DNA of 64,000 bases from Escherichia phage DCP80. Below the pieces are notes generated by a model. That model did no database searches and was not told the origin of the DNA. It worked only from the letters and a program-made list of their open reading frames with translations. Made by a program: the position numbers and the translations under genes. The first letter of the stretch is position 1, and the number at the start of each line of letters is the position of its first letter. This document shows positions 36,933-55,309 of the stretch, in pieces. The DNA lies in sequence record PQ671644.1; one strand, written 5' to 3'.

Positions 36933-36935
36933 AAT

Positions 36936-37133
36936 TTATTCACCAAAATAAGAGATACGAGTTGCCAGTACATGAGCATAAGCGCCCATCGCGTCTAACT
37001 GTGCAATCAAAAGACCTTGTTGACGAGCATCGAGAGTTTCAAAAACACCGCCCTTAATAAATTCTTCAAGAGCATTGATTTTCAAAACCAGCTGGTCATG
37101 TTCTTCAACTACACGTGCTTGGAAACCTAACAT
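36936..37133 (-). CDS. Hypothetical protein
   Basis: 65-aa ORF. Confidence 0.4.
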   Translation of the reverse strand: MLGFQARVVEEHDQLVLKINALEEFIKGGVFETLDARQQGLLIAQLDAMGAYAHVLATRISYFGE

Positions 37134-37146
37134 AAAGCCTCATTAG

Positions 37147-37160
37147 GGGCCGAAGCCCCG
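37147..37160. terminator. Terminator-type hairpin GGGGCCGAAGCCCC
   Basis: In the rIIB-downstream intergenic gap where arm 2 carries an HNH gene. Confidence 0.5.
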
Positions 37161-37166
37161 ATTAAT

Positions 37167-38141
37167 TTAGAATTGTTCAGTTACATCATCAAGGACCAGG
37201 TAACCACAGACCCTCATCTTACTATCACCATAATCCACCGGGATACTTACAACATCACGCGGGTGAACTTTACAGGATACGATGCGTCCATCACCATGAC
37301 CAAAACCACTTCCAATATAACCTTTAGAGCAAACATGCAACCCAGTTGAACAAGTTTGTTCGTCATTATCGTTCACACGAGAGCGCGGCATTTTAACATA
37401 TTGACCAGGGCTGTTGTCGAATGTATTTGAGTGACAATCTTTGTAAGTTGCACGAACCATTTTCCATGCGATGAAATGACCGTCTTCGGTGATTTCGATA
37501 TCGTTCGCAACCAGGAAGTCAAACAAACGCTGTACGGCTTTCTCACTCGGGTTCTCAAGGAGATTCTCAAGGAACGGCAGATAGAATTCAAAGTCTTCGC
37601 CATTTTGCATTGAATCAATGATACGAGTAACCAGGCCAGAGCGTAGTTCAATTCCCTGATAGAACAGACTACCACCTTCAATACGCACATCGCCTTTCAC
37701 ATATTTTTGTACTGCAGCTTTGATTGAGATAAACTCGATAGCATCATCAAAACGAGATTCAATCAATGCCTGAATAATATCATTAAAGTGTTTATGGTCT
37801 TTTGTGGCGTTCCAGACTGTGCGACCTTCAGTGATGGAAACGAATTTGCTTGATGCGTTCCATACGATTTCTGGGCGGCTACCGCCGATTGTATCTTCAA
37901 CGACCGGAACTTCAACCATTACTGTCACCGGAGCATTAATCGCCACACCAACAGCTGCTTTCAGTGATGCAGAAATGGTTTTAGATAATTTTGATTCTTT
38001 ATCATTTTTCAAAACACGGCGAATGGTGTCAACCGATACACCGAAATTATCTGCTAGTTCCTGTTGGGTATAATTACCAGTTTTATAAAGAGAAACTACC
38101 TGGTTTTGGTCAAATTTGGATAAAGCTTTAATATTAAACAT
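37167..38141 (-). CDS. rIIB: rIIB protein
   Basis: MFNIK...GNYTQQELA..GVSVDTIRRVLKN and C-terminal HVCSKGYI...VHPRDVVSIP match T4 rIIB. Confidence 0.85.
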   Translation of the reverse strand: MFNIKALSKFDQNQVVSLYKTGNYTQQELADNFGVSVDTIRRVLKNDKESKLSKTISASLKAAVGVAINAPVTVMVEVPVVEDTIGGSRPEIVWNASSKFVSITEGRTVWNATKDHKHFNDIIQALIESRFDDAIEFISIKAAVQKYVKGDVRIEGGSLFYQGIELRSGLVTRIIDSMQNGEDFEFYLPFLENLLENPSEKAVQRLFDFLVANDIEITEDGHFIAWKMVRATYKDCHSNTFDNSPGQYVKMPRSRVNDNDEQTCSTGLHVCSKGYIGSGFGHGDGRIVSCKVHPRDVVSIPVDYGDSKMRVCGYLVLDDVTEQF

Positions 38142-38142
38142 A

Positions 38143-40377: not shown

Positions 40378-40384
40378 GTTTTTC

Positions 40385-40594
40385 TCACTTTATGTTACGT
40401 TTGATTAATTCTGCAACTTCAAGAAGTTCATCCTTTGTTGCGGTGTCTGAAGCTATTTTAATACGGATTTCTTTGAAGCGTTCTTTAAACTCTTCAGCTT
40501 CTCTTATATCAAAAAAACGTTGGATAACACGGTATTCTTTATGGATAGCCTTATCAAACAGTTCCATATTAACTTTGAAGTTCGTCATTTCCAA
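40385..40594 (-). CDS. Hypothetical protein upstream of rIIA
   Basis: 69-aa ORF, same in both arms. Confidence 0.4.
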   Translation of the reverse strand: MEMTNFKVNMELFDKAIHKEYRVIQRFFDIREAEEFKERFKEIRIKIASDTATKDELLEVAELIKRNIK

Positions 40595-40853
40595 TCTCCT
40601 GTAATATTTTTCTCATACTACGCATGGTAGCTTTATGTTCTTGGTCATGGTATATCAATGCAAGGAGTGCTTCAATTCGCTCCTCAGGGACCTTCTGGCC
40701 AGCCTTAATTCTCATGGCTGATGTTCTTACAGCTAACAAGTAACTTCGCTTCCTGTCGTTATCTGGGAGCCCCTGCACTTTCCTCAGACCTGCTTCCATA
40801 ATACACCGTGCGACATTTTGCAGATTAACTAAACTTCCGTCAGACATAATCAT
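40569..40853 (-). CDS. Hypothetical protein
   Basis: 94-aa ORF, same in both arms. Confidence 0.4.
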   Translation of the reverse strand: MIMSDGSLVNLQNVARCIMEAGLRKVQGLPDNDRKRSYLLAVRTSAMRIKAGQKVPEERIEALLALIYHDQEHKATMRSMRKILQEIGNDELQS

Positions 40854-40910
40854 ATTTTCACCTCAAAGACATCTTAACACACTTTTTGTGGCTTGTACAT
40901 AATAAAAAGG

Positions 40911-40928
40911 TCTCCCGAAGGAGACCAA
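40911..40928. terminator. Terminator hairpin GGTCTCCCGAAGGAGACC
   Basis: Inverted copy at 42992. Confidence 0.6.
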
Positions 40929-40983
40929 ATTTTATTCTACTTTATAGACTTGACCATACGCCATGAAAGTTTCACCTTCCCAG

Positions 40984-41040
40984 GTTTCGCACGNNNNNNN
41001 NNNNNNNNNNNNNNNNNNNNNNNNNNNNNNNNNNNNNNNN
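40984..41040. other. Assembly gap (N57), scaffold joint
   Basis: N-run; removes 5' end of gene 39. Confidence 0.9.
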
Positions 41041-41044
41041 ATTC

Positions 41045-42793
41045 TTGTTTGGTGAATATAAGTCCGTAAGCTATGTTCCTGGTATTGTAAAACTGATTGA
41101 TGAAATTATCGATAACTCTGTTGATGAAGCAATTCGCACCAGTTTTAAATTCGCCAATAAAATTGATGTTCAAATTAAAGGCAATAAGGTTATCGTTGAA
41201 GATAACGGACGCGGTATTCCACAAGCAATGGTTGTCGACCAGACCGGTGAACAAATACCTGGCCCTGTCGCGGCATGGACTATTCCAAAGGCCGGTGGCA
41301 ACTTCGGTGATGATGCTGAGCGTAAAACTGGCGGGATGAATGGCGTTGGTAGTAGTTTAACCAACATCTTCTCTGTAACATTTGCGGGTGCAACTTGTGA
41401 TGGTGAGAATGAAATTGTCGTACGTTGTTCTAACGGAATGGAAAATAAGAGCTGGAATAAAGTTCCCGCTTCGAAGAAAGAACATGTGAAGGCTAAGACT
41501 GGTACGGTTGTTTCCTTTATTCCCGAATTCAGCCATTTTGAAACTAATGGACTCGACGAGACTTATGACGCCATCACATTGGACCGTCTACAGACTCTTG
41601 CGGTTGTTTATCCGGATATTCAGTTTACCTTTAATGGCAAAAAGGTTGATGGTAACTTCAAGAAGTTCGCCAAGCAATTTGGAACCGAAGTTGTTATCCA
41701 GGAAACTGATACGGTATCGATGGCCTTTACGACTAGCCCGGATGGTTTCCGTCAGTTGACTTATGTCAACAACATTCATACAAAGAATGGCGGACACCAC
41801 GTTGAATGTGTTATGGATGATATCTGTGAACATCTTCAACCAGCCATTAAACGCAAATATAAAGGCATCGAGGTGACCAAGGCACGAGTTAAAGAATGTC
41901 TCACCATGCTTATGTTCATCCGCGATATGAGCAACATGCGATTTGATTCCCAGACCAAAGAGCGATTGACTTCTCCGGCTGGTGAAATTCGAAATCACAT
42001 TAAGATTGATGCTAAGAAAATCGCGCAAGCTATTCTGAAAAATGAACCGCTGATTATGCCGATTGTTGAAGCTGCATTAGCCCGTAAATTGGCTGCAGAA
42101 AAAGCAGCAGAGACTAAAGCGAATAAGAAAGCTTCGAAGGCTAAGGTACAAAAGCATATCAAAGCCAACGAATGGGGTAACGACAAACTTGAAACGACTC
42201 TATTCCTGACCGAAGGGGATTCTGCAACGGGTCCATTTATCAAGGTTCGCGACCGTGAATTGCAAGGTGCTTATCCATTACGTGGTAAGTTTAAAAACAC
42301 ATGGGGTCTGAAAGCTGTTGACGTTATGAAGAACGCTGAAGCCTTTGATGTGTGTGCAATTACTGGGTTAACGATTGGACAACCGGCCAAGAATATGAAT
42401 TACCGAAACATTGCTATCATGACAGATGCGGATGTGGATGGTGTCGGTAGTATCTATCCATCGTTATTGGCGTTTTTCAGTAACTGGCCAGAGCTGTTCC
42501 ATGAAGGACGAATTCGCTTTGTGAAAACTCCTGTTATTATTGCGCAGCTCAAAGACAAACAAGAATGGTTCTATTCTCTTCCTGACTATGAAGAAGCTAA
42601 GGATAAACTTCCGAAGCACACCATCCGATATATCAAGGGGCTTGGTTCTCTGGAAGATTCCGAGTATAAACGCGTATTGCTCGAACCAGTATTCGAAGTT
42701 GTCCAATTGCCTGATAACTGGAAAGAACTGTTCGAAATGTTATTCGGTAAAGATTCACAACAGCGTAAAGATTGGATGAATGCGACGCTATAA
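41045..42793 (+). CDS. 39: DNA topoisomerase II large subunit (GyrB-like), gene 39 with gene 60 region fused; 5' end missing
   Basis: VPGIVKLIDEIIDNSVDEAIRT, EDNGRGIP and GGMNGVGSS ATPase motifs; TOPRIM MTDADVDG; C-terminus continuous. Confidence 0.85.
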   Translation: MFGEYKSVSYVPGIVKLIDEIIDNSVDEAIRTSFKFANKIDVQIKGNKVIVEDNGRGIPQAMVVDQTGEQIPGPVAAWTIPKAGGNFGDDAERKTGGMNGVGSSLTNIFSVTFAGATCDGENEIVVRCSNGMENKSWNKVPASKKEHVKAKTGTVVSFIPEFSHFETNGLDETYDAITLDRLQTLAVVYPDIQFTFNGKKVDGNFKKFAKQFGTEVVIQETDTVSMAFTTSPDGFRQLTYVNNIHTKNGGHHVECVMDDICEHLQPAIKRKYKGIEVTKARVKECLTMLMFIRDMSNMRFDSQTKERLTSPAGEIRNHIKIDAKKIAQAILKNEPLIMPIVEAALARKLAAEKAAETKANKKASKAKVQKHIKANEWGNDKLETTLFLTEGDSATGPFIKVRDRELQGAYPLRGKFKNTWGLKAVDVMKNAEAFDVCAITGLTIGQPAKNMNYRNIAIMTDADVDGVGSIYPSLLAFFSNWPELFHEGRIRFVKTPVIIAQLKDKQEWFYSLPDYEEAKDKLPKHTIRYIKGLGSLEDSEYKRVLLEPVFEVVQLPDNWKELFEMLFGKDSQQRKDWMNATL

Positions 42794-42796
42794 ATA
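42789..42796 (+). promoter_or_regulatory. TATAAATA late-type promoter
   Basis: GCTATAAATAG after gene 39 stop, before SD AGGAGA. Confidence 0.4.
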
Positions 42797-42991
42797 GATG
42801 TGGGAGAATATTCTCCCGCTACTAGGAGACAATATGACTAAATACTGGATTACACTCGCTACCGGTGAATATGGTTTTCTCTGGGCAGAGAAAAAGCCTT
42901 TGTTTGCAGAATTTGTAACAATCACGTGCGAAACCTGGGAAGGTGAAACTTTCATGGCGTATGGTCAAGTCTATAAAGTAGAATAAAATTT

Positions 42992-43014
42992 GGTCTCCTT
43001 CGGGAGACCTTTTT
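42992..43014 (+). terminator. Rho-independent terminator
   Basis: GGTCTCCTTCGGGAGACC plus TTTTTATT. Confidence 0.7.
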
Positions 43015-43064
43015 ATTATGTACAAGCCACAAAAATTGTGTTAAGATGTCTTTGAGGTGAAAAT

Positions 43065-43349
43065 ATGATTATGTCTGACGGAAGTTTAGTTAATCTGCAG
43101 AATGTCGCACGGTGTATTATGGAAGCAGGCCTGAGGAAGGTACAGGAGCTCCCAGATAGCGACAGGAAGCGAAGTTACTTGTTAGCTGTAAGAACAGCAG
43201 CCATGAGCATTAAGGCTGGCCAGAAGGTCCCTGAGGAGCGAATTGAAGCACTTCTTGCATTGATATACCATGACCAAGAACATAAAGCTACCATGCGTAG
43301 TATGAGAAAAATATTACAGGAGATTGGAAATGACGAACTTCAAAGTTAA
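43065..43349 (+). CDS. Hypothetical protein (homolog of 40569..40853)
   Basis: 94 aa, 4 substitutions versus arm 1. Confidence 0.4.
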   Translation: MIMSDGSLVNLQNVARCIMEAGLRKVQELPDSDRKRSYLLAVRTAAMSIKAGQKVPEERIEALLALIYHDQEHKATMRSMRKILQEIGNDELQS

Positions 43350-43533
43350 TATGGAGCTGTTTGATAAAGCTGTTCATAAAGAATACCGCGTTATCCAACG
43401 ATTTTTTGATATAAGAGAAGCTGAAGAGTTTAAAGAACGCTTCAAAGAAATCCGTATTAAAATAGCTTCAGACACCGCAACAAAGGATGAACTTCTTGAA
43501 GTTGCAGAATTAATCAAACGTAACATAAAGTGA
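43324..43533 (+). CDS. Hypothetical protein (homolog of 40385..40594)
   Basis: 69 aa. Confidence 0.4.
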   Translation: MEMTNFKVNMELFDKAVHKEYRVIQRFFDIREAEEFKERFKEIRIKIASDTATKDELLEVAELIKRNIK

Positions 43534-43540
43534 GAAAAAC

Positions 43541-45775
43541 ATGATTTTAGAAACTGAAAAGGAAACAATCCTTGGTAATGGTGCCAAGGCATCAGCATTC
43601 ACAATCCAGGCATCTCCAAAGGTGTTTAAGATTCTGACCAGCGACCTTTATACAAACAAGGTGCGCGCGGTTGTTCGTGAGCTGATTACCAATATGATTG
43701 ATGCTCATATGCTCAATGGCTGTCAGGATAAATTCATTGTTCAAGCTCCTGGTGAACTGGACCCACGTTTTGTGTGTCGTGACTTTGGTCCAGGTATGAG
43801 TGATTTCCAGATTCGTGGTGATGAAAATACGCCAGGTCTGTATAACAGTTTCTTTGCATCATCCAAGGCTGAATCCAATGATTTTATTGGTGGCTTCGGC
43901 TTGGGTTCTAAATCTCCGTTTAGTTATACAGAGACGTTTAGCCTGATTTCATATCATGATGGACAAGTTAATGGTTATGTCGCTTATATGGACGGTGATG
44001 GTCCACAGATTAAGCCAACCTTTAGCGAACCAATGAAACCTGGTGACCGCACAGGGATTGAAGTTGTTGTCCCGGTTGATAGTAATGATTTCGGTAAGTT
44101 CCGTTATGAGATTGCATATATCATGCGTCCATTTGCTGGACTGGCTGAAGTGCAAGGCGTAGGCGAAATTAATTACTTCCCAGAATTTGATGATTATTAT
44201 GCTCCAGCGCGTATTAATTATAGCAGTCCAGAACGTTATGGACTTTATGCAATTTATGGTGGAATTGTTTATCCGATTGGTGATGGTTACACCAAGAAAA
44301 CCTGGATGACTGCCAAAAATGATGTTGTCTTTATTAAGTTCCCAATGGGTTCGCTGGATATTGCACCTTCTCGCGAAGCGTTATCACTGGACAAACGTAC
44401 GGTCGCAAATATCGTTGAACGTATTGAAGCCCTTGATAAGAAAGTCATGGAAGATGATTGTAAGAAATGGCAGGAATCAGAATGTCTCCGCCATACATAT
44501 CGCGAATTGCAGAATCTGAATTATGAAGCTCGTAATTTTCTGAAAGCTCGTAATGTTGAAACGAAATTTACGAAATCACAATTGACCTTTAACCAGATGT
44601 ACGAAATGTTCGAGCTGGACAAAGACCTTATTAATGCCGGGGTTGTCTATGATATCTATCGCGATACTCGTCTGAAACGTCTGCGTAACGCAAGCTCAAG
44701 CTCGAACACGGCAAGTCTGACGCGCATGTTTGGTATTCAGACTGATACCTTGAACATTGTTATTGATGATGCTAAAGGGCGAATTGCGATGATTCGTGGT
44801 ATCAGTTCAATGTTGTATGATACCAGCGCGAAAGCTAAAAAGCTTATTGCATCTGGTAAAGTCCCGACTCGTCAGGGTAGTAGTTTACTGTTTGTTGACC
44901 CAACCAGCGAAATTCAAACACGGTTGATGGTTCAACTCCAGGAACGATTTAAAGGCGATACGGTTAATATCTATCGTACGTCTGAACTGACTGCCCTTGT
45001 AAAAGACTGGATTCCGGTTGCTGACCCGAAAGCGCGCGTTAAGTCAAAGACTCCATCATTGATTCGTTGGACTAAAACTAATGGTCGCTGGCAGTCTGTT
45101 GAAGAATTTACATGTGCAGCTGATGCAGAGGAAATCGATGGTTATGCTGTATTCATTAACCGCAGTAGCATTTCCCCGTTGAATCAAGAATACGGCACCA
45201 CGACCTTCGGGACCCAGACATTGTGTAAACTGGCAAACCTGTTGGAAATCAATGAATTCTGTGTTATTCGTCCACAGCTTCAGAAAAAGGTTACCAAGCT
45301 GGCGCAGTGCGATTGTCTGATTGAAGCTGCAGTCAATCGTTATGTGGAATTGATTGATGCGGTTGATGCGGACCAGTACATTGCCGCTTCAAGCCGTTCG
45401 CGTTATTATATTCCTATCCTGTCTGAATATGCAGAACTGAATTTTATGTTCAAGTATTTTTATGCAAAAGATGTTCAGAAAGATGTGAATACTGACTATG
45501 CCGAACTAATGCAGTTCAATAAGTTCTTTGCTTATAACGCATATAACAGTGGAACAGTTGATAAGACCATGCAGGAAACATTGGTCCTTTGTAATAAGAT
45601 TTATGACGACCTGACCAAAAACGCTTCGGTAACAAGCGATAAAATGGTTTTTGAATTTGAAAAGAATCACCCGATTGTTTCACACTTTTTATATAACCGT
45701 AACGCTATGTCAACTGAACAAGTACAGAACGTTGCTCAAATCATGAAGGCCGTGGAAGCGGCCAATAAGGAATAA
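43541..45775 (+). CDS. rIIA: rIIA protein (second copy)
   Basis: 744 aa, about 8 substitutions versus 38143..40377. Confidence 0.9.
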   Translation: MILETEKETILGNGAKASAFTIQASPKVFKILTSDLYTNKVRAVVRELITNMIDAHMLNGCQDKFIVQAPGELDPRFVCRDFGPGMSDFQIRGDENTPGLYNSFFASSKAESNDFIGGFGLGSKSPFSYTETFSLISYHDGQVNGYVAYMDGDGPQIKPTFSEPMKPGDRTGIEVVVPVDSNDFGKFRYEIAYIMRPFAGLAEVQGVGEINYFPEFDDYYAPARINYSSPERYGLYAIYGGIVYPIGDGYTKKTWMTAKNDVVFIKFPMGSLDIAPSREALSLDKRTVANIVERIEALDKKVMEDDCKKWQESECLRHTYRELQNLNYEARNFLKARNVETKFTKSQLTFNQMYEMFELDKDLINAGVVYDIYRDTRLKRLRNASSSSNTASLTRMFGIQTDTLNIVIDDAKGRIAMIRGISSMLYDTSAKAKKLIASGKVPTRQGSSLLFVDPTSEIQTRLMVQLQERFKGDTVNIYRTSELTALVKDWIPVADPKARVKSKTPSLIRWTKTNGRWQSVEEFTCAADAEEIDGYAVFINRSSISPLNQEYGTTTFGTQTLCKLANLLEINEFCVIRPQLQKKVTKLAQCDCLIEAAVNRYVELIDAVDADQYIAASSRSRYYIPILSEYAELNFMFKYFYAKDVQKDVNTDYAELMQFNKFFAYNAYNSGTVDKTMQETLVLCNKIYDDLTKNASVTSDKMVFEFEKNHPIVSHFLYNRNAMSTEQVQNVAQIMKAVEAANKE

Positions 45776-45776
45776 T

Positions 45777-46754
45777 ATGTTTAATATCAAATGTATGTCT
45801 AAAGCCGAACAAGAACGAGTTGTCTCTCTTTATGAATCTGGTAACTATACGCAAGACGAACTTGCACTCGGTTTCGGCGTTTCGGTTGACACCATTCGTC
45901 GCGTTTTGAAAAATGACAAAGAATCAAAATTAGCTAAAACCATTTCTGCATCACTGAAAGCCGCTGTCGGGGTGGCGATTAATGCTCCAGTGACAGTAAC
46001 AGTTGAAGCCCCGGTTGAAGCCACAATCGGTGGAAGCCGCCCGGAAATCGTATGGAATGCATCAAGTAAATTCGTTTCCATTACTGAAGGTCGTACAGTC
46101 TGGAATGCAACAAAAGACCATAAACACTTTGATGATATTATTCAGGCACTCAAAGAATCTCGTTTTGATGATGCTATTGAGTATATCTCAATCAAAGCTG
46201 CAGTACAAAAATATGTGAAAGGCGATGTGCGTATTGAAGGTGGTAGTCTGTTCTATCAGGGAATTGAACTGCGCTCTGGCCTGGTTACTCGTATCATTGA
46301 TTCAATGCAAAATGGCGAAGACTTTGAATTCTATCTGCCATTCCTTGAGAATCTCCTTGAGAACCCGAGTGAGAAAGCCGTACAGCGTTTGTTTGACTTC
46401 CTGGTTGCGAACGATATCGAAATCACCGAAGACGGCCATTTCATCGCATGGAAAATGGTTCGTGCAACCTACAAAGATTGTCACTCAAACACATTCGACA
46501 ACAGCCCTGGCCAATATGTTAAAATGCCACGCTCTCGTGTGAATGACAATGACGAACAAACTTGTTCGACTGGTCTGCACGTTTGCTCTAAAGGCTATAT
46601 CGGAAGTGGTTTTGGTCATGGTGATGGACGCATCGTATCCTGTAAAGTTCACCCGCGTGATGTTGTAAGTATCCCGGTGGATTATTCCGATAGTAAGATG
46701 AGGGTTTGCGGTTACCTGGTTCTTGAAGATGTGACCGAACGTTTCAATGATTAA
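45777..46754 (+). CDS. rIIB: rIIB protein (second copy)
   Basis: 325 aa; N-terminal ~90 aa diverged from arm 1, remainder near identical. Confidence 0.85.
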   Translation: MFNIKCMSKAEQERVVSLYESGNYTQDELALGFGVSVDTIRRVLKNDKESKLAKTISASLKAAVGVAINAPVTVTVEAPVEATIGGSRPEIVWNASSKFVSITEGRTVWNATKDHKHFDDIIQALKESRFDDAIEYISIKAAVQKYVKGDVRIEGGSLFYQGIELRSGLVTRIIDSMQNGEDFEFYLPFLENLLENPSEKAVQRLFDFLVANDIEITEDGHFIAWKMVRATYKDCHSNTFDNSPGQYVKMPRSRVNDNDEQTCSTGLHVCSKGYIGSGFGHGDGRIVSCKVHPRDVVSIPVDYSDSKMRVCGYLVLEDVTERFND

Positions 46755-47238
46755 ACAAACAATTGCTAAAGATGGCTCGGCTCGTGGTATTGTCCACGGG
46801 CTAGGTCACACGCCTGAATACATTGTATGGATTGGCATGAAAGCTCGGTGTTGCAATCCAACACATATTAGTTATTCTCGATATGGCGGTCGGGGTATCA
46901 CTGTTTGCGATGAATGGCTGCATGATTTTGAAAGATTTTATACAGATATGGGGCCACGACCCACTGACAAACATCAACTTGACCGAACAGATAACGATAA
47001 AGGGTACTCTCCCGATAACTGCAGATGGGTTAGTCCAGGCGAGAATGCTTTAAATAAGCGCCCGTATAATAACAACAAGTCTGGATTTAAAGGAGTCTCG
47101 TTTGATAAACGAGCTTTGAATAAACCATGGCGAGCCACTATTATGCGAAATAAAAAACAAATTCAAGTCGGAGCTTTTGCAACTCCAGAAGAAGCAAATG
47201 AAGCTCGATTAAAATATATGGAAGAACACAATGTCTAA
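46747..47238 (+). CDS. HNH homing endonuclease with AP2-like DNA-binding domain
   Basis: GGRGITVCDEW...LDRTDNDKGYSPDNCRWV then KSGFKGVSF...WRA; absent from equivalent site in arm 1. Confidence 0.7.
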   Translation: MIKQTIAKDGSARGIVHGLGHTPEYIVWIGMKARCCNPTHISYSRYGGRGITVCDEWLHDFERFYTDMGPRPTDKHQLDRTDNDKGYSPDNCRWVSPGENALNKRPYNNNKSGFKGVSFDKRALNKPWRATIMRNKKQIQVGAFATPEEANEARLKYMEEHNV

Positions 47239-47440
47239 AGAAATGTTAGGTTTCCAAGCACGTGTAGTTGAAGAACATGACCAGCTGGTTTTGAAAATTA
47301 ATGCTCTTGAAGAATTTATTAAGGGCGGAGTTTTTGAAACTCTCGATGCTCGTCAACAAGGTCTTTTGATTGCCCAGTTAGATGCAATGGGTGCATATGC
47401 TCATATACTGGCAACTCGTATCTCTTATTTTGGTGAATAA
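47231..47440 (+). CDS. Hypothetical protein (homolog of 36936..37133)
   Basis: 69 aa. Confidence 0.4.
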   Translation: MSKEMLGFQARVVEEHDQLVLKINALEEFIKGGVFETLDARQQGLLIAQLDAMGAYAHILATRISYFGE

Positions 47441-47443
47441 ATT

Positions 47444-47713
47444 ATGATTAAGCATTTCAATGTGTCAGACCGTGACATCAAAGTTTCAAATCTCCGGGGT
47501 CATCATTATGCGGGAATAGTTTACTGCGGTAAGCTCATCAAGCATGAAGGTGATGTTCACTATGGTTGGTTGGAATGTGATGAAGTAGTTGTTGGGGAAT
47601 TCCCTGACCCGAATTCTGATACATTTGATGCTAATGACCGTTTGTATTATGGCGAGCTTCACATCCGTGGAATCGTCGGTATCGATGAGGTCGTAAATGA
47701 TTCAGAAGAGTAA
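47444..47713 (+). CDS. Hypothetical protein (homolog of 36663..36932)
   Basis: 89 aa. Confidence 0.4.
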   Translation: MIKHFNVSDRDIKVSNLRGHHYAGIVYCGKLIKHEGDVHYGWLECDEVVVGEFPDPNSDTFDANDRLYYGELHIRGIVGIDEVVNDSEE

Positions 47714-48290
47714 AACCTGGGAGCATTTGAAAAAGATGCCCTCCTTTCTTTATACGAAGGAAGACTTAACCCCCGAATCCCTACAAAAGATTGTAGACAC
47801 TGCCAGATATTCATTGCGTAAAGACCCAGGTCAGGACCGTGAGCAAGTCATGCAAAGATGTATGGTGGCCACAATGGCTGAACAAGCTATTGCTAAATGG
47901 ACCTCCGGTTTTTTATGTGGCGGTGATGAAGATTACGATAATCCTTATTCCTTTGCATTTGATGTAGTTTCGAAGGAAGGGGTGAGAATCGAAGTCAAGA
48001 CCCACCAGTCTGGGTCCAAATGGATATCCGTGCATACTGGCCACCAGGGCGATTATCCACATGGTTACGGGATTAATCTTGGTCCTTTTATGCAACACAA
48101 GCTTGCTGACCTTATGATTATGCTCGATGTAAAAGAGACTCTCAAAGGTTATAGATTTAAACCAAAATTCCTTGCTGGACCCGGTGCTTTCGTTCCTGAG
48201 TCTGGTCTTGTGCAGAAGTCACAAGGGGATGGCTGGTACCTCCGTTCTTGTTCAGAAGAAAAATTTCCCTATCACCGGTTTACAAGCTGA
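47697..48290 (+). CDS. denB: Endonuclease IV DenB-like (second copy)
   Basis: 197 aa, near identical to 36086..36679. Confidence 0.6.
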   Translation: MIQKSKTWEHLKKMPSFLYTKEDLTPESLQKIVDTARYSLRKDPGQDREQVMQRCMVATMAEQAIAKWTSGFLCGGDEDYDNPYSFAFDVVSKEGVRIEVKTHQSGSKWISVHTGHQGDYPHGYGINLGPFMQHKLADLMIMLDVKETLKGYRFKPKFLAGPGAFVPESGLVQKSQGDGWYLRSCSEEKFPYHRFTS

Positions 48291-48337
48291 ACCAACTGTG
48301 TAATAATGTCCTCATACCAACAAATAAGGACATTATC

Positions 48338-48613
48338 ATGGAACACGTTACTACTCACAACATCAAACAAATTCTTATCCAAGCACTCAAAAACAACAAC
48401 ATCAATTTTCCAACCCATGAAATTTTTGATGTGGTATTCAACGAAGTCCAGGGTCAAGTTGCATATTATGACGTTATCGTTTATCTTTCAGAATTTGAAG
48501 TCTACCATCTGACTGAAATTGCTTTCTATCTCTATCGTGGGACTGCAGATTTTACTGGGGTCGTGAATGCAGTTGGCGCATATAAAGAAGTTAAAGAGCA
48601 AATGCACAATTAA
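48338..48613 (+). CDS. Hypothetical protein (homolog of 35763..36038)
   Basis: Start at MEHVTTH. Confidence 0.4.
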   Translation: MEHVTTHNIKQILIQALKNNNINFPTHEIFDVVFNEVQGQVAYYDVIVYLSEFEVYHLTEIAFYLYRGTADFTGVVNAVGAYKEVKEQMHN

Positions 48614-48688
48614 TTAAAAAGTAGTGTACATCAGTATGGAGTCAGTGCATAATGATTCCATACTGAGTTACCAACCTGGAGAAACAAA

Positions 48689-48952
48689 ATGAAATTTAAA
48701 TTTTATTATATTAAGCATAAAGTTACTGGGGAGTTTATTGCATTTACAACTTCATCCAATAATCAAGGTGATACTTTTACTTCATTGTTCTTATCTAGAT
48801 GGGATTCAGACCAGCCTTATTTGTCCACAAAAGAGCATCTTCAACGTATGGCGAAGGGCGAGCTAAACGATTCTTGGGATAATATTGTGAATAATTGTAT
48901 CAAGAAAGCTATCCAAGAAAATCAACTTGAAATCATTGAGGTGGAATTGTGA
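48689..48952 (+). CDS. Hypothetical protein, paralog family member present only in arm 2
   Basis: MKFKFYYIKHKVTG; arm 1 has an unrelated 51-aa ORF here. Confidence 0.4.
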   Translation: MKFKFYYIKHKVTGEFIAFTTSSNNQGDTFTSLFLSRWDSDQPYLSTKEHLQRMAKGELNDSWDNIVNNCIKKAIQENQLEIIEVEL

Positions 48953-49215
48953 ATATTAAATTATATTACGCCAAGCACAAAGTTACAGGTATGGTTGTTG
49001 CTGCTATGTATGACGCGTCAGGCGATGGTGATGATGTTATTACAGAGTTATCTCTTTCTGATTGTAAATTTCTTCGCCCGTTGGTTGCATCAAAGCGTGA
49101 TTTAAAAAAGCTTATTGATGGTAAGCTGGACAATATTGATGGTATAGATATTTTTTATGACCTCCGCGTCGCATTGTCTGATGGATTGATTGAAATCAAA
49201 GAGGTGATATTTTGA
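48949..49215 (+). CDS. Hypothetical protein (homolog of 35252..35518)
   Basis: 88 aa. Confidence 0.4.
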   Translation: MNIKLYYAKHKVTGMVVAAMYDASGDGDDVITELSLSDCKFLRPLVASKRDLKKLIDGKLDNIDGIDIFYDLRVALSDGLIEIKEVIF

Positions 49216-49486
49216 GCAGCAAAACCTGGTGTCTTATCTGGATGTTGTGTATCCCAGTAATTTGCGTTTGTTTTAGTTTATTATTAATGAAACTTGCATA
49301 AAGAGTGTACATCTCCGGTGGTTGTAGTATAATGAACCTATCAACTACTGGAGATGATTATGAAAAAGTTACTTAAAGCCATTTGGAACATGTTTATACT
49401 GTTTGTTGTCCTGAGCATTTTCCCAATTGTTTTTATGATTGACCATGTACGTGTTTACTTTAACTATTTCTTTTGAGGATAATACT

Positions 49487-49633
49487 ATGATAGTTATGAA
49501 AAAGTTTAAAGAATATCATTGCTATGAATGTGGCAAAAAGATTGATTCTATTCATTCATTAAACGTCTTTTCTTTTGATAATTTAAACTATGCACACATT
49601 TGGTGCCTTCGTGGAATGACTAAATTTAACTGA
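49487..49633 (+). CDS. Small Cys/His-containing protein, possible zinc ribbon, arm 2 only
   Basis: HCYECGKK...HIWC spacing; absent from arm 1. Confidence 0.3.
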   Translation: MIVMKKFKEYHCYECGKKIDSIHSLNVFSFDNLNYAHIWCLRGMTKFN

Positions 49634-49790: not shown

Positions 49791-49800
49791 NNNNNNNNNN
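49791..49800. other. Assembly gap (N10), scaffold joint
   Basis: N-run; truncates arm 2. Confidence 0.9.
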
Positions 49801-49831
49801 TTTACAATTGAGTTAACTCCCAAGGATTAAT

Positions 49832-50143
49832 ATGCAAGCTCCAGATATTTCTCAACTGACCGATAAGCAGATTGAAGAAGCACAGGAACGTCTCGAAGAA
49901 GCGAACGCACTTGAAGCACGCAGTCAAGCAGCGAAGATTCTGAAAAAGAATGCTCGTGAAATTGCACGACTGAATAAGCATGCTCAAGGGGCAGTGCTGG
50001 AAAACAATTTTGAAGCATACAAATATGCTTTAGTTAAACTGCGTGGAATTTACCGCCAACCAGTTACGGAAGACCTGATTAAGTTGATGTGGGAAACTAC
50101 TCGCAAACAAATTTGGGAAATCGTAAATGGCATTAGTAAATAA
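49832..50143 (+). CDS. Hypothetical coiled-coil protein
   Basis: 103-aa ORF. Confidence 0.4.
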   Translation: MQAPDISQLTDKQIEEAQERLEEANALEARSQAAKILKKNAREIARLNKHAQGAVLENNFEAYKYALVKLRGIYRQPVTEDLIKLMWETTRKQIWEIVNGISK

Positions 50144-50554
50144 ACCGTTTAAGCGGCTTCGTGTAGGGGCCGCTTTCAGATTTCGCTCATATGGTGATAT
50201 CTGTATCAAGCAGACCGAAACCGAATGTAAGCTCCTTGGCCCTTATGGTGTTCCAAAAGGTATTGTTAAAATTGAGCCGACATCCAAAGTTTGGGTGGAT
50301 TCACACCAACTTAAGAAATGGTGGCAACGATGATAACATGGACAGCAGGCTAATGAAAGACGAATACGAAAAAGTTTAAGAGGTTGTATGAATGACGAAT
50401 TCGATGGATTTTGATAAGATTAAATCTGACAAAAATGAGATGTTGCTTAAATTTGAAGCCGCTCGTATTAAAGCAGAAAATGAAGGTACTATTACCTATA
50501 AGCCTATCAAGTTCAGGTCTTCTCATGAACCTCTGTATGGTGTATTAATTGGAA

Positions 50555-50577
50555 AGGAAGCCTAGTGCTTCCTTTTT
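50555..50577 (+). terminator. Rho-independent terminator
   Basis: GGAAGCCTAGTGCTTCC plus TTTTTT. Confidence 0.65.
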
Positions 50578-50762
50578 TGCTTTATATTCGGGATGATAAA
50601 ATGAACCAACTGAGGAGAACATATGGAATTATTTTTAGGATATGTCGTGCTATTCATGGCATTCTATACATTCACACGAGCTTGTTGGATAGGATTCTTT
50701 TCCACTCCTGACGGGTTCATTTCAATAATTTTATTTTGCATTGCGATAACGGTGCTTGGCTT

Positions 50763-51782
50763 ATGAAAATTTTAAATTTAGGTGATTGGCACTTGGGTGT
50801 CAAAGCTGACGACCCATGGGCTCAAAACATTCAACGCGATGGTATTTTACAGGCGATTGCGTATTCCAAAGCGAATGGGATTAAAGTCTGGATTCAATAT
50901 GGCGATATTTTTGACGTCCGTAAGGCCGTAACGCATAAGACGATGGAATTCAGCCGTGAGATTATGGAACTCCTTCGTGAAGCAGGAATTACTATGCACA
51001 CGATAGTCGGGAACCATGACATGAATCTGAAGAATAAGATTCATCCTAATGCTATCACTGAACTCCTGAATAAGTATGACCATGTTAAAATCTACGACAA
51101 GCCAACGACTGTTGATTTTGACGGTTGTCAGATTGATATGATTCCATGGATGTGTGACGAGAACGCAACTGACATTCACCAACATATCAAAACTTCTGGT
51201 GCTGAATATTGCATCGGTCACTGGGAATTAACCGGGTTTTATTTCTATAAAGGATTGAAATCCCACGGACTTGAGCCTGATTTCCTTAAGAAGTACAAGC
51301 AAGTTTGGTCTGGTCACTTCCACACAATTTCAGAAGCTGCGAACGTTAAGTACATAGGAACACCATGGACATTAACAGCAGGTGATGAGAACGACCCACG
51401 CGGGTTCTGGGAATTTGATACCGAAACCGAAGAGATGAAATTTATTCCGAATGAAACCACCTGGCATCGGAAGATTTTTTATCCAAACGAAACTATTAAC
51501 TACGACGACTTCAAAGACTTATCAGTCCGTGTTATTGTAGAAAAAGTCGATAAAGACCTGACCAAGTTCGAATCCGAATTAGAAAAGCGTGTGCATGAAT
51601 TGCGTGTTGTCAATAAGGTTGATAACAGTGTTGATACGACTGACTCCGAAGAAGAGTTAGACATAAAACGCTTAACTGATATGATGGCAGAATATATTGA
51701 TGCATTACCTGACACCAATGAGAAAGAATCAAAAGCTCTTAAAGCATTGGCCAACAAATTATATCTTGAGGTGCAACCGTGA
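50763..51782 (+). CDS. 47: Recombination endonuclease subunit gp47 (Mre11-like)
   Basis: MKILNLGDWHLGVKADD, YGDIFDVRKA, GNHD and GHFH phosphoesterase motifs match T4 gp47; start moved to MKIL. Confidence 0.85.
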   Translation: MKILNLGDWHLGVKADDPWAQNIQRDGILQAIAYSKANGIKVWIQYGDIFDVRKAVTHKTMEFSREIMELLREAGITMHTIVGNHDMNLKNKIHPNAITELLNKYDHVKIYDKPTTVDFDGCQIDMIPWMCDENATDIHQHIKTSGAEYCIGHWELTGFYFYKGLKSHGLEPDFLKKYKQVWSGHFHTISEAANVKYIGTPWTLTAGDENDPRGFWEFDTETEEMKFIPNETTWHRKIFYPNETINYDDFKDLSVRVIVEKVDKDLTKFESELEKRVHELRVVNKVDNSVDTTDSEEELDIKRLTDMMAEYIDALPDTNEKESKALKALANKLYLEVQP

Positions 51783-52042
51783 AACTTTATGATTTTAATG
51801 AAGCGGGGCTTGAACATATCCGCGAATGTGATGTGGTTGACGACGATAATCAACCGAATACTATTAAGTATTGGTTTGAAGCTATCACTGACCGGGAAAC
51901 CGGTCAACTTATCAAAGTCTATGTAGTCACCGATTGGGCCGTAGAATTTAGTTTTAATGTAATGGAAGATGATACTCCAGAAACATTAATTCATATGGCT
52001 GAATCATGCATCAAGGATGCTTATAATGATGAAAATGTATAA
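51779..52042 (+). CDS. Hypothetical protein
   Basis: 87-aa ORF. Confidence 0.4.
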   Translation: MKLYDFNEAGLEHIRECDVVDDDNQPNTIKYWFEAITDRETGQLIKVYVVTDWAVEFSFNVMEDDTPETLIHMAESCIKDAYNDENV

Positions 52043-52241
52043 ACATGATTTTCATATTGGCGATGGCTGGTTCGGTAATGTAGAATGGGACGTGGATGGT
52101 TCTTGGTATACCGGAACTATGTATGTCACTTCTGAATATTCTGAAGGTGTTTCATGGGCCATGGAACTTGACGACGTGTTTGCTTCTTCCGAAGAAATGC
52201 TAGAATATGCTGAACAAACAATTCGTGAGAACAATACATGA
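52017..52241 (+). CDS. Hypothetical protein
   Basis: 74-aa ORF. Confidence 0.35.
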   Translation: MLIMMKMYKHDFHIGDGWFGNVEWDVDGSWYTGTMYVTSEYSEGVSWAMELDDVFASSEEMLEYAEQTIRENNT

Positions 52242-53920: not shown

Positions 53921-53954
53921 TGCTTTAAACAAGGATGTTATAATAGAGGCTATT

Positions 53955-54578: not shown

Positions 54579-54608
54579 TTAATTTTGATTTGAATAAAAG
54601 GTAATTAA

Positions 54609-55304: not shown

Positions 55305-55309
55305 TAAAT

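What the first reader, a model, noticed from the sequence alone, without database searches (positions are those of the whole stretch)
46747..47238. Homing endonuclease presence/absence polymorphism at the rIIB-downstream intergenic site
Arm 2 has a 163-aa HNH-AP2 gene between rIIB and the next conserved gene. Arm 1 has only a 33-bp gap with a hairpin at the equivalent position (37134-37166), and the rIIB ends flanking the insertion are the most diverged part of the duplication. This is the expected pattern for an active homing endonuclease with co-conversion tracts.
Basis: partly seen in the sequence, partly recalled or inferred. Interest (0 to 1): 0.55.

Follow-up and report, generated by a model that had tools for sequence, protein, structure and literature searches.

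The report
Mobile nuclease gene beside phage rIIB
A small selfish "homing endonuclease" gene sits just after the rIIB gene in one T4-like coliphage strain and is absent from a second strain in the same scaffold; this is an ordinary, already annotated kind of phage mobile element, and the "duplication" it was thought to lie in is an artefact of contigs joined by N runs.

Summary
The ORF (46747-47238, 163 aa) is real, and so is the 33-bp hairpin spacer at the matching site (37134-37166). The two "arms" are not a duplication. N runs at 40994-41040 and four other places coincide with every synteny break, so the window is a scaffold of six pieces. The arms are two Gaprivervirus (VR7/SP18-like) strain variants of one locus.

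The protein has a C-terminal AP2 fold and a divergent N-terminal His-Me (HNH-superfamily) domain. That domain is closest to PacI, with Arg in place of the catalytic His and an invariant loop Tyr. The protein is homologous to ICP1 gp59, so it belongs to the described "IPA-HNH" class.

Population data support homing:
- 14 carriers and 16 empty sites were compared.
- Five carriers share a 605-649 bp tract that is 100% identical, while their flanks differ by 4-15%.
- The nearest flank relatives of carriers are often non-carriers.
- T4 has the empty site with the same kind of hairpin.
- 65-70% identical orthologues sit just after rIIB in two distant T4-like lineages.

Cleavage activity is untested. 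This is a new member of a known kind, of low to moderate interest.

The parts
46747..47238 (+). Free-standing homing-endonuclease-type gene (163 aa; IPA-HNH / AP2-HNH class)
   Evidence: ORF. PHROG 374 'HNH endonuclease', E 8e-59. 6743 homologues at E<=1e-5. dN/dS is 0.09 against the 6.7%-diverged allele. hhalign of the family profile against ICP1 gp59 gives probability 97%, E 3e-11. An identical protein is encoded in TH54, MN01 and four Logan contigs.
46795..47076 (+). N-terminal nuclease-like domain (residues ~17-110): beta-beta-alpha core with D79-R80, Y87, N91, N103 and Cys35/54/92
47080..47226 (+). C-terminal AP2-type DNA-binding domain (residues ~112-160)
46746..47242 (+). Inserted segment (497 bp) that replaces the 36-bp empty-site sequence
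   Evidence: Pairwise and population alignments. The HNH ATG lies 5 nt before the rIIB stop (ATGATTAA). The HNH stop overlaps a new upstream ATG of denB.1 (ATGTCTAA).
46671..47275 (+). Core tract that is 100% identical between this contig, TH54, MN01 and two Logan contigs (pairwise tracts run from 46629-46671 to 47275-47319): the insertion plus short co-converted flanks
   Evidence: Identical-tract boundaries. There are 0/60 and 0/492 differences inside the tract, against 22-38/535 (rIIB middle), 48-57/374 (rIIB 5' end) and 10-17/198 (denB.1) between carriers with different backgrounds.
46686..46745 (+). Last 60 bp of rIIB: haplotype linked to the main HNH allele (protein ends ..LEDVTERFND* instead of ..LDDVTEQF*)
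   Evidence: Differentiation between carriers and non-carriers rises only here. The second HNH allele (group B) carries a non-carrier-like haplotype up to ~46738, so obligatory linkage covers only the last ~15 bp.
45777..46754 (+). rIIB of the HNH-carrying strain
   Evidence: PHROG 609, E 5e-103.
47231..47440 (+). denB.1 homologue (PF21825) of the carrier strain. Homology with the empty allele resumes exactly at the second ATG, 47243
37134..37169 (-). Empty site in the second strain's contig: rIIB stop codon plus a 33-bp spacer with the UUCG hairpin (37145-37158) and the GAGG ribosome-binding site of denB.1. This is the proposed target of the endonuclease
   Evidence: The sequence is almost invariant in 16 non-carrier genomes. 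T4 has the same arrangement with a GGC-UUCG-GCC hairpin.
37167..38141 (-). rIIB of the HNH-less strain
   Evidence: inverted match to 45777-46745.
36936..37133 (-). denB.1 homologue of the HNH-less strain
   Evidence: 97% match to 47243-47440.
40994..41040 (.). Run of 47 N that joins the two strain contigs (scaffold or concatenation joint, not sequence)
   Evidence: It coincides with a colinearity break against phage 212: 36660 on one side and 34776 on the other.

Best explanation
The ORF at 46747-47238 is a free-standing homing endonuclease gene of the AP2-associated, divergent-HNH ('IPA-HNH') class. It is carried by one of two Gaprivervirus (VR7/SP18-like T4-type coliphage) strains whose contigs were joined in this scaffold.

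Proposed mechanism:
1. The gene sits inside the rIIA-rIIB-denB early operon. It is probably translated by coupling to rIIB, because its ATG lies 5 nt before the rIIB stop.
2. In a cell co-infected with a phage that lacks the gene, the C-terminal AP2 domain docks on the conserved empty site. That site comprises the rIIB stop codon and the G/C-rich GGGGC-UUCG-GCCCC palindrome between rIIB and denB.1.
3. The N-terminal beta-beta-alpha-metal domain cuts nearby. It probably uses a PacI-like active site, with Asp79 and Asn103 holding the metal and the invariant loop Tyr87 standing in for the missing catalytic His.
4. Recombinational repair from the carrier genome copies in the 497-bp gene. It also copies roughly 75-115 bp of rIIB 3' end and 35-75 bp of denB.1.
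5. The insertion deletes the hairpin site, so carriers are immune.

Shown here: the presence/absence polymorphism; the exact boundaries; that the empty site is ancestral; purifying selection on the ORF; recent horizontal spread of an identical cassette into different backgrounds; conservation of the site across three T4-like lineages; homology to ICP1 gp59; and the AP2 fold.

Inferred: nuclease activity, the identity of the recognition sequence, the catalytic residues, the translational coupling, and that spread is driven by cleavage rather than by ordinary recombination.
For: (1) Same gene, same site, sporadic distribution. It is present in VR7 (annotated VR7_gp292 'HNH endonuclease'), TH54, MN01 and phage 212, and absent from ~30 other Gapriverviruses. 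Nine further metagenomic carriers were found.

(2) Recent horizontal movement. Five carriers from unrelated sources share a 605-649 bp tract with zero differences, while adjacent rIIB differs by 4-7% (13-15% at its 5' end) and denB.1 by 5-9%. dS is 0 in the gene against 0.13-0.39 in neighbouring genes. The nearest flank relatives of carriers are often non-carriers, for example YenP8, EAWsc9, TH57 and CJ20. Differentiation between carriers and non-carriers is about zero outside the last ~100 bp of rIIB, apart from partial linkage to the variable gene after denB.1.

(3) The empty site is ancestral and conserved. Sixteen non-carriers have a nearly invariant 36-bp stop, hairpin and ribosome-binding-site sequence. 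T4 has the equivalent hairpin site. The empty allele has no remnant of the gene.

(4) The gene is functional, not decaying. 13 of 14 copies are intact, and dN/dS is 0.09 between the two alleles. One copy (phage 212) is frameshifted, as expected late in the life cycle of such elements.

(5) Site specificity across lineages. Orthologues with 65-70% identity lie immediately 3' of rIIB in Morganella phage MP1 and in an unrelated T4-like Logan contig, where rIIB, rIIA, denB and denB.1 are only 35-57% identical.

Against: - No cleavage data exist for this protein or any close relative.
- The canonical catalytic His is absent: Arg80 is invariant at that position.
- Pfam finds no HNH domain, and AP2 is below threshold.
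- PacI's two Cys4 zinc sites are not reproduced; only three Cys are conserved.
- T4-type phages recombine so readily that an identical cassette in shuffled flanks could arise from ordinary recombination plus selection, without a targeted break.
- Only ~12% of sequenced isolates carry the gene, which is low for an efficient drive.
- Related AP2 proteins of Firmicutes prophages act as pure DNA-binding repressors (CasPRs, bioRxiv 10.64898/2026.02.23.707548). Some homologues here carry a CapR-like domain.
- Group B carriers keep a non-carrier-like rIIB end. Any recognition site lying only in those 60 bp would therefore not explain immunity.
Confidence: 0.72

Rival explanations
1. The gene is a non-cutting accessory gene. 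It would be an AP2-type sequence-specific DNA-binding protein whose His-Me domain is catalytically dead (His replaced by Arg). It could act as a regulator or an anti-defence or competition factor. It would spread between Gapriverviruses by ordinary homologous recombination because it is advantageous, not by making a break.
For: The catalytic His is missing, with Arg80 invariant, and there is no Pfam HNH hit. AP2-containing phage proteins (CasPRs) work purely as transcriptional repressors (bioRxiv 10.64898/2026.02.23.707548). Homologues with 44-48% identity in Streptococcus prophages have an added CapR-like domain. Strong purifying selection (dN/dS 0.09) and in-operon placement with start/stop overlaps that preserve downstream translation would also fit a useful gene.
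Against: D79, Y87, N91 and N103 are invariant or nearly invariant across a family of thousands. This is hard to explain for a dead active site, and it matches the PacI solution in which Tyr replaces His (PMC5714182). The exact same insertion point recurs in three lineages with 35-57% identical flanks. The zero-diversity island has sharp edges. The N-domain also occurs inside DNA polymerase genes and in other sporadic positions, and the family is homologous to HEGs found at recombination boundaries in ICP1 (PMC10448857). All of these are typical of homing elements.
Confidence: 0.17
2. The gene is ancestral to the Gapriverviruses and is being lost. On this reading the presence/absence pattern reflects repeated deletion, not gain.
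For: The gene is found after rIIB in three T4-like lineages. Phage 212 shows decay by frameshift. Carriers are a minority.
Against: Empty sites contain a conserved hairpin and ribosome-binding site that the occupied allele lacks, so they cannot be produced by deleting the gene. T4, an outgroup genus, has the same kind of empty site. Carriers with flanks 4-15% diverged share a cassette with zero substitutions, including at synonymous sites, which vertical descent cannot give. The protein is more conserved across lineages (65-70%) than every neighbouring gene (35-57%).
Confidence: 0.05
3. One reading: one phage genome carries an inverted ~8-kb duplication of the rII region, with the endonuclease in one arm and its uncut target in the other.
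For: Inverted repeats of 3.1, 1.4 and 0.7 kb at 94-97% identity exist in the window as given.
Against: The arms are separated by 47 N plus the gp39 gene. All five N runs coincide with breaks in colinearity with a complete relative. Piece 1 is an unrelated phage. No Gaprivervirus genome among those matched has such a duplication; each shows a single place for the locus. An active endonuclease and its target could not coexist stably in one genome.
Confidence: 0.02

Closest known systems
IPA-HNH homing endonuclease genes (ICP1 gp59, gp114-115, gp209; Barth, Dunham & Seed 2023, PMC10448857), equivalent to the AP2-HNH elements of Magnani et al. 2004, noted in RB49 and RB43 (PMC1524935)
   Same: The architecture is the same: an N-terminal HNH-like domain too divergent for Pfam HNH_3, plus a C-terminal AP2 domain. 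Homology was tested directly: hhalign of the family profile against ICP1 gp59 gives probability 97%, E 3e-11 over 118 columns. It is free-standing, lies next to conserved genes, and sits at a boundary of genetic exchange.
   Different: It is a short form: 163 aa against 272 aa for gp59. It has D-R where gp59 has D-K. The paper states that T4 itself has no IPA-HNH genes, whereas this one is in a Tevenvirinae genus and targets the rIIB/denB.1 junction. No member, including this one, has a mapped cleavage site.
Free-standing homing endonucleases of T-even phages (SegA-G of the GIY-YIG family; MobA-E and I-TevIII of the HNH family), e.g. SegG and MobE
   Same: It is an intergenic insertion between conserved genes in a T4-type genome. 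It is sporadic among close relatives. Short flanks are co-converted. The expected behaviour in mixed infection is marker exclusion (from established knowledge of these systems; refs 10 and 11 in PMC10448857).
   Different: The nuclease domain is different: a PacI-like His-Me domain without the catalytic His. The DNA-binding module is AP2 instead of NUMOD or helix-turn-helix. It occupies a locus (rIIB-denB.1) not used by any T4 seg or mob gene. Activity has not been demonstrated.
PacI restriction endonuclease (PDB 3m7k/3ldy; His-Me finger group 20 of Jablonska et al. 2017, PMC5714182)
   Different: Sequence identity is only 17-20% and the scores are modest. The two Cys4 zinc sites are absent. 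PacI is a homodimeric restriction enzyme without an AP2 domain. The equivalence of Tyr87 to PacI's Tyr was not verified by superposition.
I-HmuI and Pfam HNH_3 homing endonucleases (His-Me group 2, which includes canonical AP2-linked HNH enzymes)
   Same: It shares the beta-beta-alpha core motif. The alignment is weak (E 0.37): query LDRidn...NcrW...N aligns with I-HmuI VDHKDG...NLRW...N. Three of 66 relatives touch HNH_3 weakly.
   Different: The general-base His of I-HmuI (recalled as H75) is Arg80 here. Neither the Pfam HNH_3 model nor the PDB sequence search reaches significance.
CasPR anti-CRISPR repressors (CapR + AP2; bioRxiv 10.64898/2026.02.23.707548)
   Same: Both are phage-encoded AP2-domain proteins that recognise specific G/C-containing sites. 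Streptococcus prophage homologues of this protein carry an N-terminal CapR-like Cys domain.
   Different: The window protein has no CapR domain, lies in a virulent T4-type phage, and shows the population signature of a mobile cassette. Whether CasPRs contain the PacI-like domain was not determined.

Membership tests
Free-standing homing endonuclease gene (behavioural definition) | Sporadic presence or absence at one identical locus among closely related genomes | tested here: met
   4 distinct isolates of ~33 in the phage collection, plus 9 metagenomic contigs, carry it at the rIIB/denB.1 junction. 16 aligned relatives have the empty site.
Free-standing homing endonuclease gene (behavioural definition) | Element more similar between carriers than their flanks are (horizontal spread with short co-conversion tracts) | tested here: met
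   A 605-649 bp tract shows zero differences in five carriers whose flanks differ by 4-15%. dS is 0 in the gene against 0.13-0.39 in neighbours.
Free-standing homing endonuclease gene (behavioural definition) | Empty allele is intact and ancestral (no scar); insertion disrupts or replaces the site | tested here: met
   The conserved 36-bp empty site is seen in 16 genomes and in T4. There is no remnant of the gene in the empty allele.
Free-standing homing endonuclease gene (behavioural definition) | Site-specific cleavage of the empty allele and over-transmission in mixed infection | not testable with these tools
   This needs biochemistry and phage crosses. No published data were found.
HNH / His-Me finger (beta-beta-alpha-metal) nuclease superfamily | Beta-hairpin plus helix core fold | tested here: inconclusive
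HNH / His-Me finger (beta-beta-alpha-metal) nuclease superfamily | Catalytic His at the end of the first strand | tested here: not met
   Arg80 is invariant at the position aligned to the I-HmuI general-base His (recalled as H75). ICP1 gp59 has Lys there.
HNH / His-Me finger (beta-beta-alpha-metal) nuclease superfamily | Asp/Asn metal ligands (before the base, and in the helix) | tested here: met
   D79 is conserved in >=90% of sequences and N103 is invariant. They align to the Asp and Asn of the I-HmuI motif (D74 and N96 by recalled numbering), but the alignment itself is weak.
HNH / His-Me finger (beta-beta-alpha-metal) nuclease superfamily | Match to a curated HNH profile (Pfam HNH, HNH_3, Endonuclease_7; NCBIfam) | tested here: not met
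   No hit even at E<=10. Only 3 of 66 relatives reach HNH_3, with E>=0.005. PHROG families named 'HNH endonuclease' match strongly, but those names are annotations.
PacI-like His-Me nucleases (Tyr in place of His) | Conserved Tyr in the loop between the two core strands | tested here: inconclusive
   Y87 is invariant in 50 and 66 sequences and lies in the 81-91 loop. Its spatial equivalence to PacI's Tyr was not checked, because no coordinates were available.
PacI-like His-Me nucleases (Tyr in place of His) | Two Cys4 zinc sites | tested here: not met
   Only Cys35, Cys54 and Cys92 are conserved, possibly with His76.
AP2/ERF DNA-binding domain (PF00847) | Pfam gathering score | tested here: not met
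   21.9 bits against a cut-off of 33.3, E 2e-4. However, 31 of 66 relatives match, with best E 3e-11.
AP2/ERF DNA-binding domain (PF00847) | Three-stranded sheet packed on a helix, superposable on solved AP2 domains | tested here: met
IPA-HNH HEGs (Barth et al. 2023) | Homology to the ICP1 founders, and the architecture of a divergent HNH followed by AP2 | tested here: met
   hhalign of A1 against ICP1 gp59 gives probability 97.2%, E 3e-11, over 118 columns spanning both domains. Pairwise BLASTP gives E 3e-6. gp209 and gp114-115 were not tested.

The most novel reading that the evidence does not exclude
The AP2-linked 'IPA-HNH' homing endonucleases, including this rIIB-junction element, may be a natural homing-enzyme lineage built on a PacI-type active site. 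In that site an invariant loop tyrosine (Tyr87), not histidine, activates or performs the attack, with Arg or Lys at the old His position. The AP2 domain of this member would read the G4/C4 UUCG-hairpin palindrome that T-even phages keep between rIIB and denB.1, so that a conserved RNA-stability element doubles as the homing site. If so, thousands of phage proteins now labelled 'HNH endonuclease' or 'AP2 domain protein' would share an unconventional chemistry, and this locus would offer a simple crossable system (VR7, MN01 or TH54 against SP18 or VR20) to prove it.
Probability: 0.35. Interest if true: 0.5.

Novelty: new member of a known kind. Interest (0 to 1): 0.3.

Why it matters
Taken at face value this is routine. 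T4-type phages are full of free-standing homing endonuclease genes, the gene is already annotated as an HNH endonuclease in the VR7 RefSeq record, and its class was described in 2004 and again in 2023.

Three points add modest value.
- The apparent inverted duplication is a scaffold artefact. Anyone using this record should know that it mixes at least two Gaprivervirus strains and an unrelated phage.
- Public genomes already contain a very clean signature of ongoing spread: a ~600-bp cassette with zero substitutions in backgrounds 4-15% apart. This makes the locus a convenient natural system for measuring homing and co-conversion in a non-T4 genus.
- The nuclease domain lacks the canonical histidine and looks PacI-like, so one biochemical experiment would settle the chemistry of a very large, poorly characterised protein family.

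Tried and rejected
- **Source of the window.** A junction pattern in viral contigs, and a strain-specific 46-mer in metagenome and genome contigs, found nothing. An exact-protein look-up returned other carriers, none of which matched the window's contig at more than ~95% identity.
- **Literature.** There is no paper on a VR7 rIIB-adjacent HNH. The PacI structure paper and Magnani et al. 2004 are not held, so PacI's residue numbering and the poly(dG)/poly(dC) preference of a cyanobacterial AP2 domain are cited only second-hand or from memory.
- **rIIB 5'-end divergence as a co-conversion gradient: rejected.** It is a population-wide polymorphism with no association to the gene.
- **A fixed 'immunity' haplotype in the last 60 bp of rIIB: rejected.** The second allele group lacks it.
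- **The spacer hairpin as a terminator: not supported.** It has no T tract, the fold z-score is only -1.2, and the scan of the carrier-side region 46300-47600 found nothing notable.
- **A second copy or remnant of the gene elsewhere in the window:** none found.
Full report
**1. What is in the window**

The ORF listing confirms an ATG ORF of 163 aa at 46747-47238 on the + strand.
- Upstream is rIIB (45777-46754; PHROG 609, E 5e-103).
- Downstream is a denB.1 homologue (47231 or 47243 to 47440; Pfam PF21825, E 4e-19).
- The ORF's ATG lies 5 nt before the rIIB stop (..TTC AAT GAT TAA). Its own stop overlaps a new upstream ATG of denB.1 (ATGTCTAA).

On the other copy of the locus, rIIB (37167-38141, - strand) is followed by a 33-bp spacer (37134-37166) and then denB.1 (36936-37133). 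The spacer reads AUUAAUCGGGGCUUCGGCCCCUAAUGAGGCUUU on the coding strand. It contains a GGGGC-UUCG-GCCCC hairpin and a GAGG ribosome-binding site.

Alignment of the two copies puts the extra DNA at 46746-47242 (497 bp) against 37134-37169 (36 bp). Homology resumes exactly at the ATG at 47243. No trace of the gene exists in the other copy.

**2. The 'duplication' is not real**

The window contains five N runs: 30711-30720, 40994-41040, 49791-49800, 56743-56760 and 62887-62940. I assembled the complete genome of the close relative Escherichia phage 212 from five fetched stretches and compared it by BLAST. Every N run coincides with a break in colinearity:

| Window segment | Strand | Phage 212 coordinates |
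|---|---|---|
| 30721-40993 | - | 47394 to 36660 |
| 41041-49465 | + | 34776 to 43204 |
| 49801-56742 | + | 4309 to 11266 |
| 56761-62886 | - | 22586 to 16112 |
| 62941-64000 | - | about 63499 to 62727 |

Positions 1-30710 have no nucleotide match to any phage record. They encode a terminase, portal, capsid-protease fusion, tape measure and J-like fibre of an unrelated tailed phage, whose terminase is under 30% identical to anything in the collection.

The window is therefore a scaffold or concatenation of six pieces. 'Arm 1' and 'arm 2' are two contigs covering the same ~6.5 kb of a Gaprivervirus genome (VR7/SP18-like Tevenvirinae) at ~96% identity. They are two strain variants, not paralogous copies. 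Whether the two strains came from the same sample is likely but not shown. I could not find the source record.

**3. The divergence profile**

Between the two contigs, identity is 96-100% over most of rIIA. It then behaves as follows:
- 78-89% at the rIIB 5' end (45775-46150);
- back to 95-99% in the middle of rIIB;
- 93-94% over 46520-46700;
- about 85% in the last 60 bp of rIIB;
- 95-98% in denB.1 after the insertion;
- 49-85% further downstream, in a region of replaced small genes (48694-49250).

The main peak is 600-970 bp away from the insertion.

**4. Population test**

I aligned the locus from 19 isolate genomes and 9 metagenomic contigs together with the two window alleles. This gave 14 carriers and 16 non-carriers.

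Differentiation between carriers and non-carriers is essentially zero along rIIA, most of rIIB (including its hypervariable 5' end), most of denB.1, and denB. It rises in the last ~100 bp of rIIB. It also rises across the variable gene after denB.1 (about 47400-47690), which reflects partial linkage to that gene's alternative forms (section 9).

The carriers fall into two allele groups.

*Group A.* This group contains the window allele, VR7, TH54, MN01, phage 212 and four Logan contigs. It shares a distinctive last-60-bp rIIB haplotype, with the protein ending LEDVTERFND* instead of LDDVTEQF*.

*Group B.* This group contains five ENA/Logan contigs. Its protein is 96% identical to group A and its DNA is 6.7% diverged. 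It keeps a non-carrier-like haplotype up to ~46738. Obligatory linkage is therefore only ~15 bp upstream and nil downstream.

The strongest result comes from five carriers: the window allele, TH54 (USA sewage), MN01 (Bangladesh surface water) and two Logan contigs.
- They share a tract of 605-649 bp (46629/46671 to 47275/47319) with no differences at all.
- Among carriers with different backgrounds, the adjoining 535 bp of rIIB differs at 22-38 positions, the rIIB 5' end at 48-57 of 374, and denB.1 at 10-17 of 198.
- Synonymous divergence is 0 in the gene, against 0.13-0.39 in rIIB, denB.1 and denB.
- In the flanks, the nearest relatives of carriers are frequently non-carriers, for example YenP8, EAWsc9, M719, TH57 and CJ20.

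A cassette this uniform in such different backgrounds must have moved recently. The sharp edges give the size of the co-transferred flanks: about 75-115 bp upstream and 35-75 bp downstream.

**5. Polarity and selection**

The empty site is nearly invariant in all 16 non-carriers (TAA ATTAATCGGGGCTTCGGCCCCTAATGAGGCTTT ATG). T4, from a different genus, has the same arrangement with a GGC-UUCG-GCC hairpin between rIIB and denB.1. The empty site is therefore ancestral. It cannot be derived from the occupied allele by deletion.

The ORF is intact in 13 of 14 carriers. Phage 212 has a 2-bp frameshift. dN/dS between groups A and B is 0.09, similar to the neighbouring genes.

Orthologues with 65-70% identity lie immediately after rIIB in Morganella phage MP1 and in an unrelated T4-like Logan contig. 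In those genomes rIIB is 46-57% identical, rIIA 35%, denB 44% and denB.1 40%. The gene is thus better conserved than its surroundings and faithful to this site.

**6. The protein**

Pfam gives no nuclease domain, and AP2 scores only 21.9 bits against a 33.3-bit cut-off. NCBIfam and the PDB sequence search give nothing. PHROGs families annotated 'HNH endonuclease' match strongly (E 8e-59). The family is large: 6743 proteins at E<=1e-5 and about 1980 phage records.

An AlphaFold2 model (pLDDT 87) has two domains.

Invariant residues across 50 and 66 relatives are R34, C35, G47, G48, R49, I51, W57, F64, R80, Y87, N91, W94 and N103. D79, C54 and C92 are conserved at >=90%.

A weak profile alignment to I-HmuI (E 0.37) places the query motif 'qlDR' on the I-HmuI motif 'VVDH', and 'alN' on 'VEN'. 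The residue numbers for I-HmuI (D74, H75, N96) and their roles come from my recollection of the I-HmuI structure paper, not from a tool output. On this alignment the metal ligands are kept, but the general-base His is replaced by an invariant Arg.

PacI is the documented case in which the His is absent and a loop tyrosine takes its role (PMC5714182; PMC4081073). Here Tyr87 is invariant in the corresponding loop. This gives a coherent but unproven catalytic model.

PacI's two Cys4 zinc sites are not reproduced.

The family profile matches ICP1 gp59 with hhalign probability 97% (E 3e-11) across both domains. This places the protein in the 'IPA-HNH' class of Barth et al. (PMC10448857). That paper also notes that the class escapes the Pfam HNH_3 model and that AP2 domains favour GC-rich targets. 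AP2-HNH elements were already noted in the T4-like phages RB49 and RB43 (PMC1524935). A PacI-like 'hidden HNH' whose BLAST relatives are AP2 proteins has been described in mycobacteriophages (PMC11855218).

**7. Mechanism proposed**

- The gene is expressed from the rII early operon, probably by translational coupling.
- In mixed infection the AP2 domain binds the conserved, G/C-rich empty site, and the nuclease domain cuts nearby.
- Repair from the carrier genome copies in the gene plus about 100 bp on each side.
- Because the insertion removes the hairpin site, carriers are immune.

The genetics-like evidence (polymorphism, polarity, recent spread, site fidelity, selection) is shown. Cleavage, the recognition sequence and the catalytic residues are inferred.

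**8. Rivals**

*Non-cutting AP2 DNA-binding protein spread by ordinary recombination and selection.* This remains possible at about 0.17. The His is missing, T4-type phages recombine freely, and CapR-AP2 'CasPR' proteins act as pure repressors (bioRxiv 10.64898/2026.02.23.707548). Some Streptococcus homologues of this protein carry a CapR-like domain. Against it are the invariant putative active-site residues, the fidelity to one site across lineages, and the family's general mobile behaviour.

*Ancestral gene being lost.* This is contradicted by the T4 outgroup, by the hairpin in empty sites and by the zero-diversity cassette.

**9. Other observations**

- **rIIB 5' end.** The region 45777-46150 encodes an HTH_7-like domain and has deep allelic classes that are independent of the gene.
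- **Gene after denB.1.** It exists in 89-aa and in 106-aa or 113-aa forms.
- **Indels between the contigs.** The two contigs also differ by a 157-bp indel (49474-49630) and by a replaced segment (48695-48949 against 35518-35678).
- **Endonuclease_7 ORF.** Some Logan carriers have an additional Endonuclease_7 ORF upstream of gp39.
- **N-domain in polymerase genes.** The N-domain also occurs inside DNA polymerase genes of some Salmonella and E. coli phages.

**10. Verdict**

This is a genuine presence/absence polymorphism of a homing-type endonuclease gene between two strains, with good population evidence of recent mobility. It belongs to a known class, is already annotated in a reference genome, and sits in a scaffold whose 'duplication' is artificial. 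It is a new member of a known kind, with interest about 0.3.

Noticed in passing
window 30711-30720, 40994-41040, 49791-49800, 56743-56760, 62887-62940: There are five N runs, and each coincides with a break in colinearity with a complete Gaprivervirus genome. The window is a scaffold or concatenation of six pieces from at least two Gaprivervirus strains plus an unrelated phage. Any 'rearrangement' or 'duplication' seen in it is suspect.
   Followed up: yes
window 1-30710: An unrelated tailed-phage segment encodes a large terminase (1734-3716), portal, capsid-protease fusion, tape measure (14463-16877), J-like fibre (18637-22437) and a terminase-small-subunit-like ORF (25760-26251). It has no nucleotide match in the phage collection, and its terminase is under 30% identical to any record (best hits are Wolbachia WO, Ralstonia phiRSP and Citrobacter phiNP).
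   Followed up: partly
window 45777-46150 (and 37770-38141 on the other contig): The rIIB 5' end, which encodes an HTH_7-like N-terminal domain, is hypervariable. Deep allelic classes differ by 13-15% in DNA and segregate among Gapriverviruses independently of the endonuclease gene. This is the real source of the divergence peak between the two contigs.
   Followed up: partly
window 47444-47713; loci L099-L103, L112-L114: The gene after denB.1 (DUF7418, annotated YopX-like in some records) exists as an 89-aa form and as a 106-aa or 113-aa form in different phages. This is a second replacement polymorphism, only partly linked to the endonuclease gene.
   Followed up: no
window 49474-49630 and 48695-48949 versus 35518-35678: Two further differences between the contigs were seen. 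One is a 157-bp segment present only in the carrier contig, which carries a small Cys-containing ORF (MIVMKKFKEYHCYECGKK...). The other is a non-homologous replacement of ~250 bp against ~160 bp.
   Followed up: no
L082 13050-13550 (Escherichia phage 212, PQ765507.1): The phage 212 copy of the endonuclease gene has a 2-bp insertion after about codon 49, so it is a frameshifted pseudogene or a sequencing error. It also carries 21 substitutions relative to the common allele.
   Followed up: partly
L112 3450-4208 and L114 1838-2596 (Logan contigs): A 252-aa ORF with an Endonuclease_7 domain sits just upstream of the topoisomerase large-subunit gene (gp39) in some relatives but not in TH54 or MN01. 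It may be another mobile nuclease polymorphism. The window's carrier contig starts inside gp39, so its state is unknown.
   Followed up: no
proteins P0018, P0030, P0072 (Streptococcus and other Firmicutes prophage homologues): Homologues with 41-47% identity add an N-terminal Cys-rich domain that weakly matches Pfam CapR. This gives a CapR, PacI-like, AP2 architecture reminiscent of the recently described CasPR anti-CRISPR repressors. All of the putative active-site residues are retained.
   Followed up: partly
hits H104, H106, H109 (E. coli and Salmonella phage DNA polymerase genes): The N-terminal domain alone (residues ~33-105) matches sequence lying inside annotated, possibly 'intein-containing', DNA polymerase genes. 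This suggests the domain also travels as an in-gene insertion.
   Followed up: no
L116 1639-1665 (phage T4, between rIIB and denB.1): T4 has a GGC-UUCG-GCC hairpin at the same intergenic position as the Gaprivervirus GGGGC-UUCG-GCCCC hairpin. The stable UUCG hairpin after rIIB is therefore conserved across genera, and it is what the insertion removes.
   Followed up: partly
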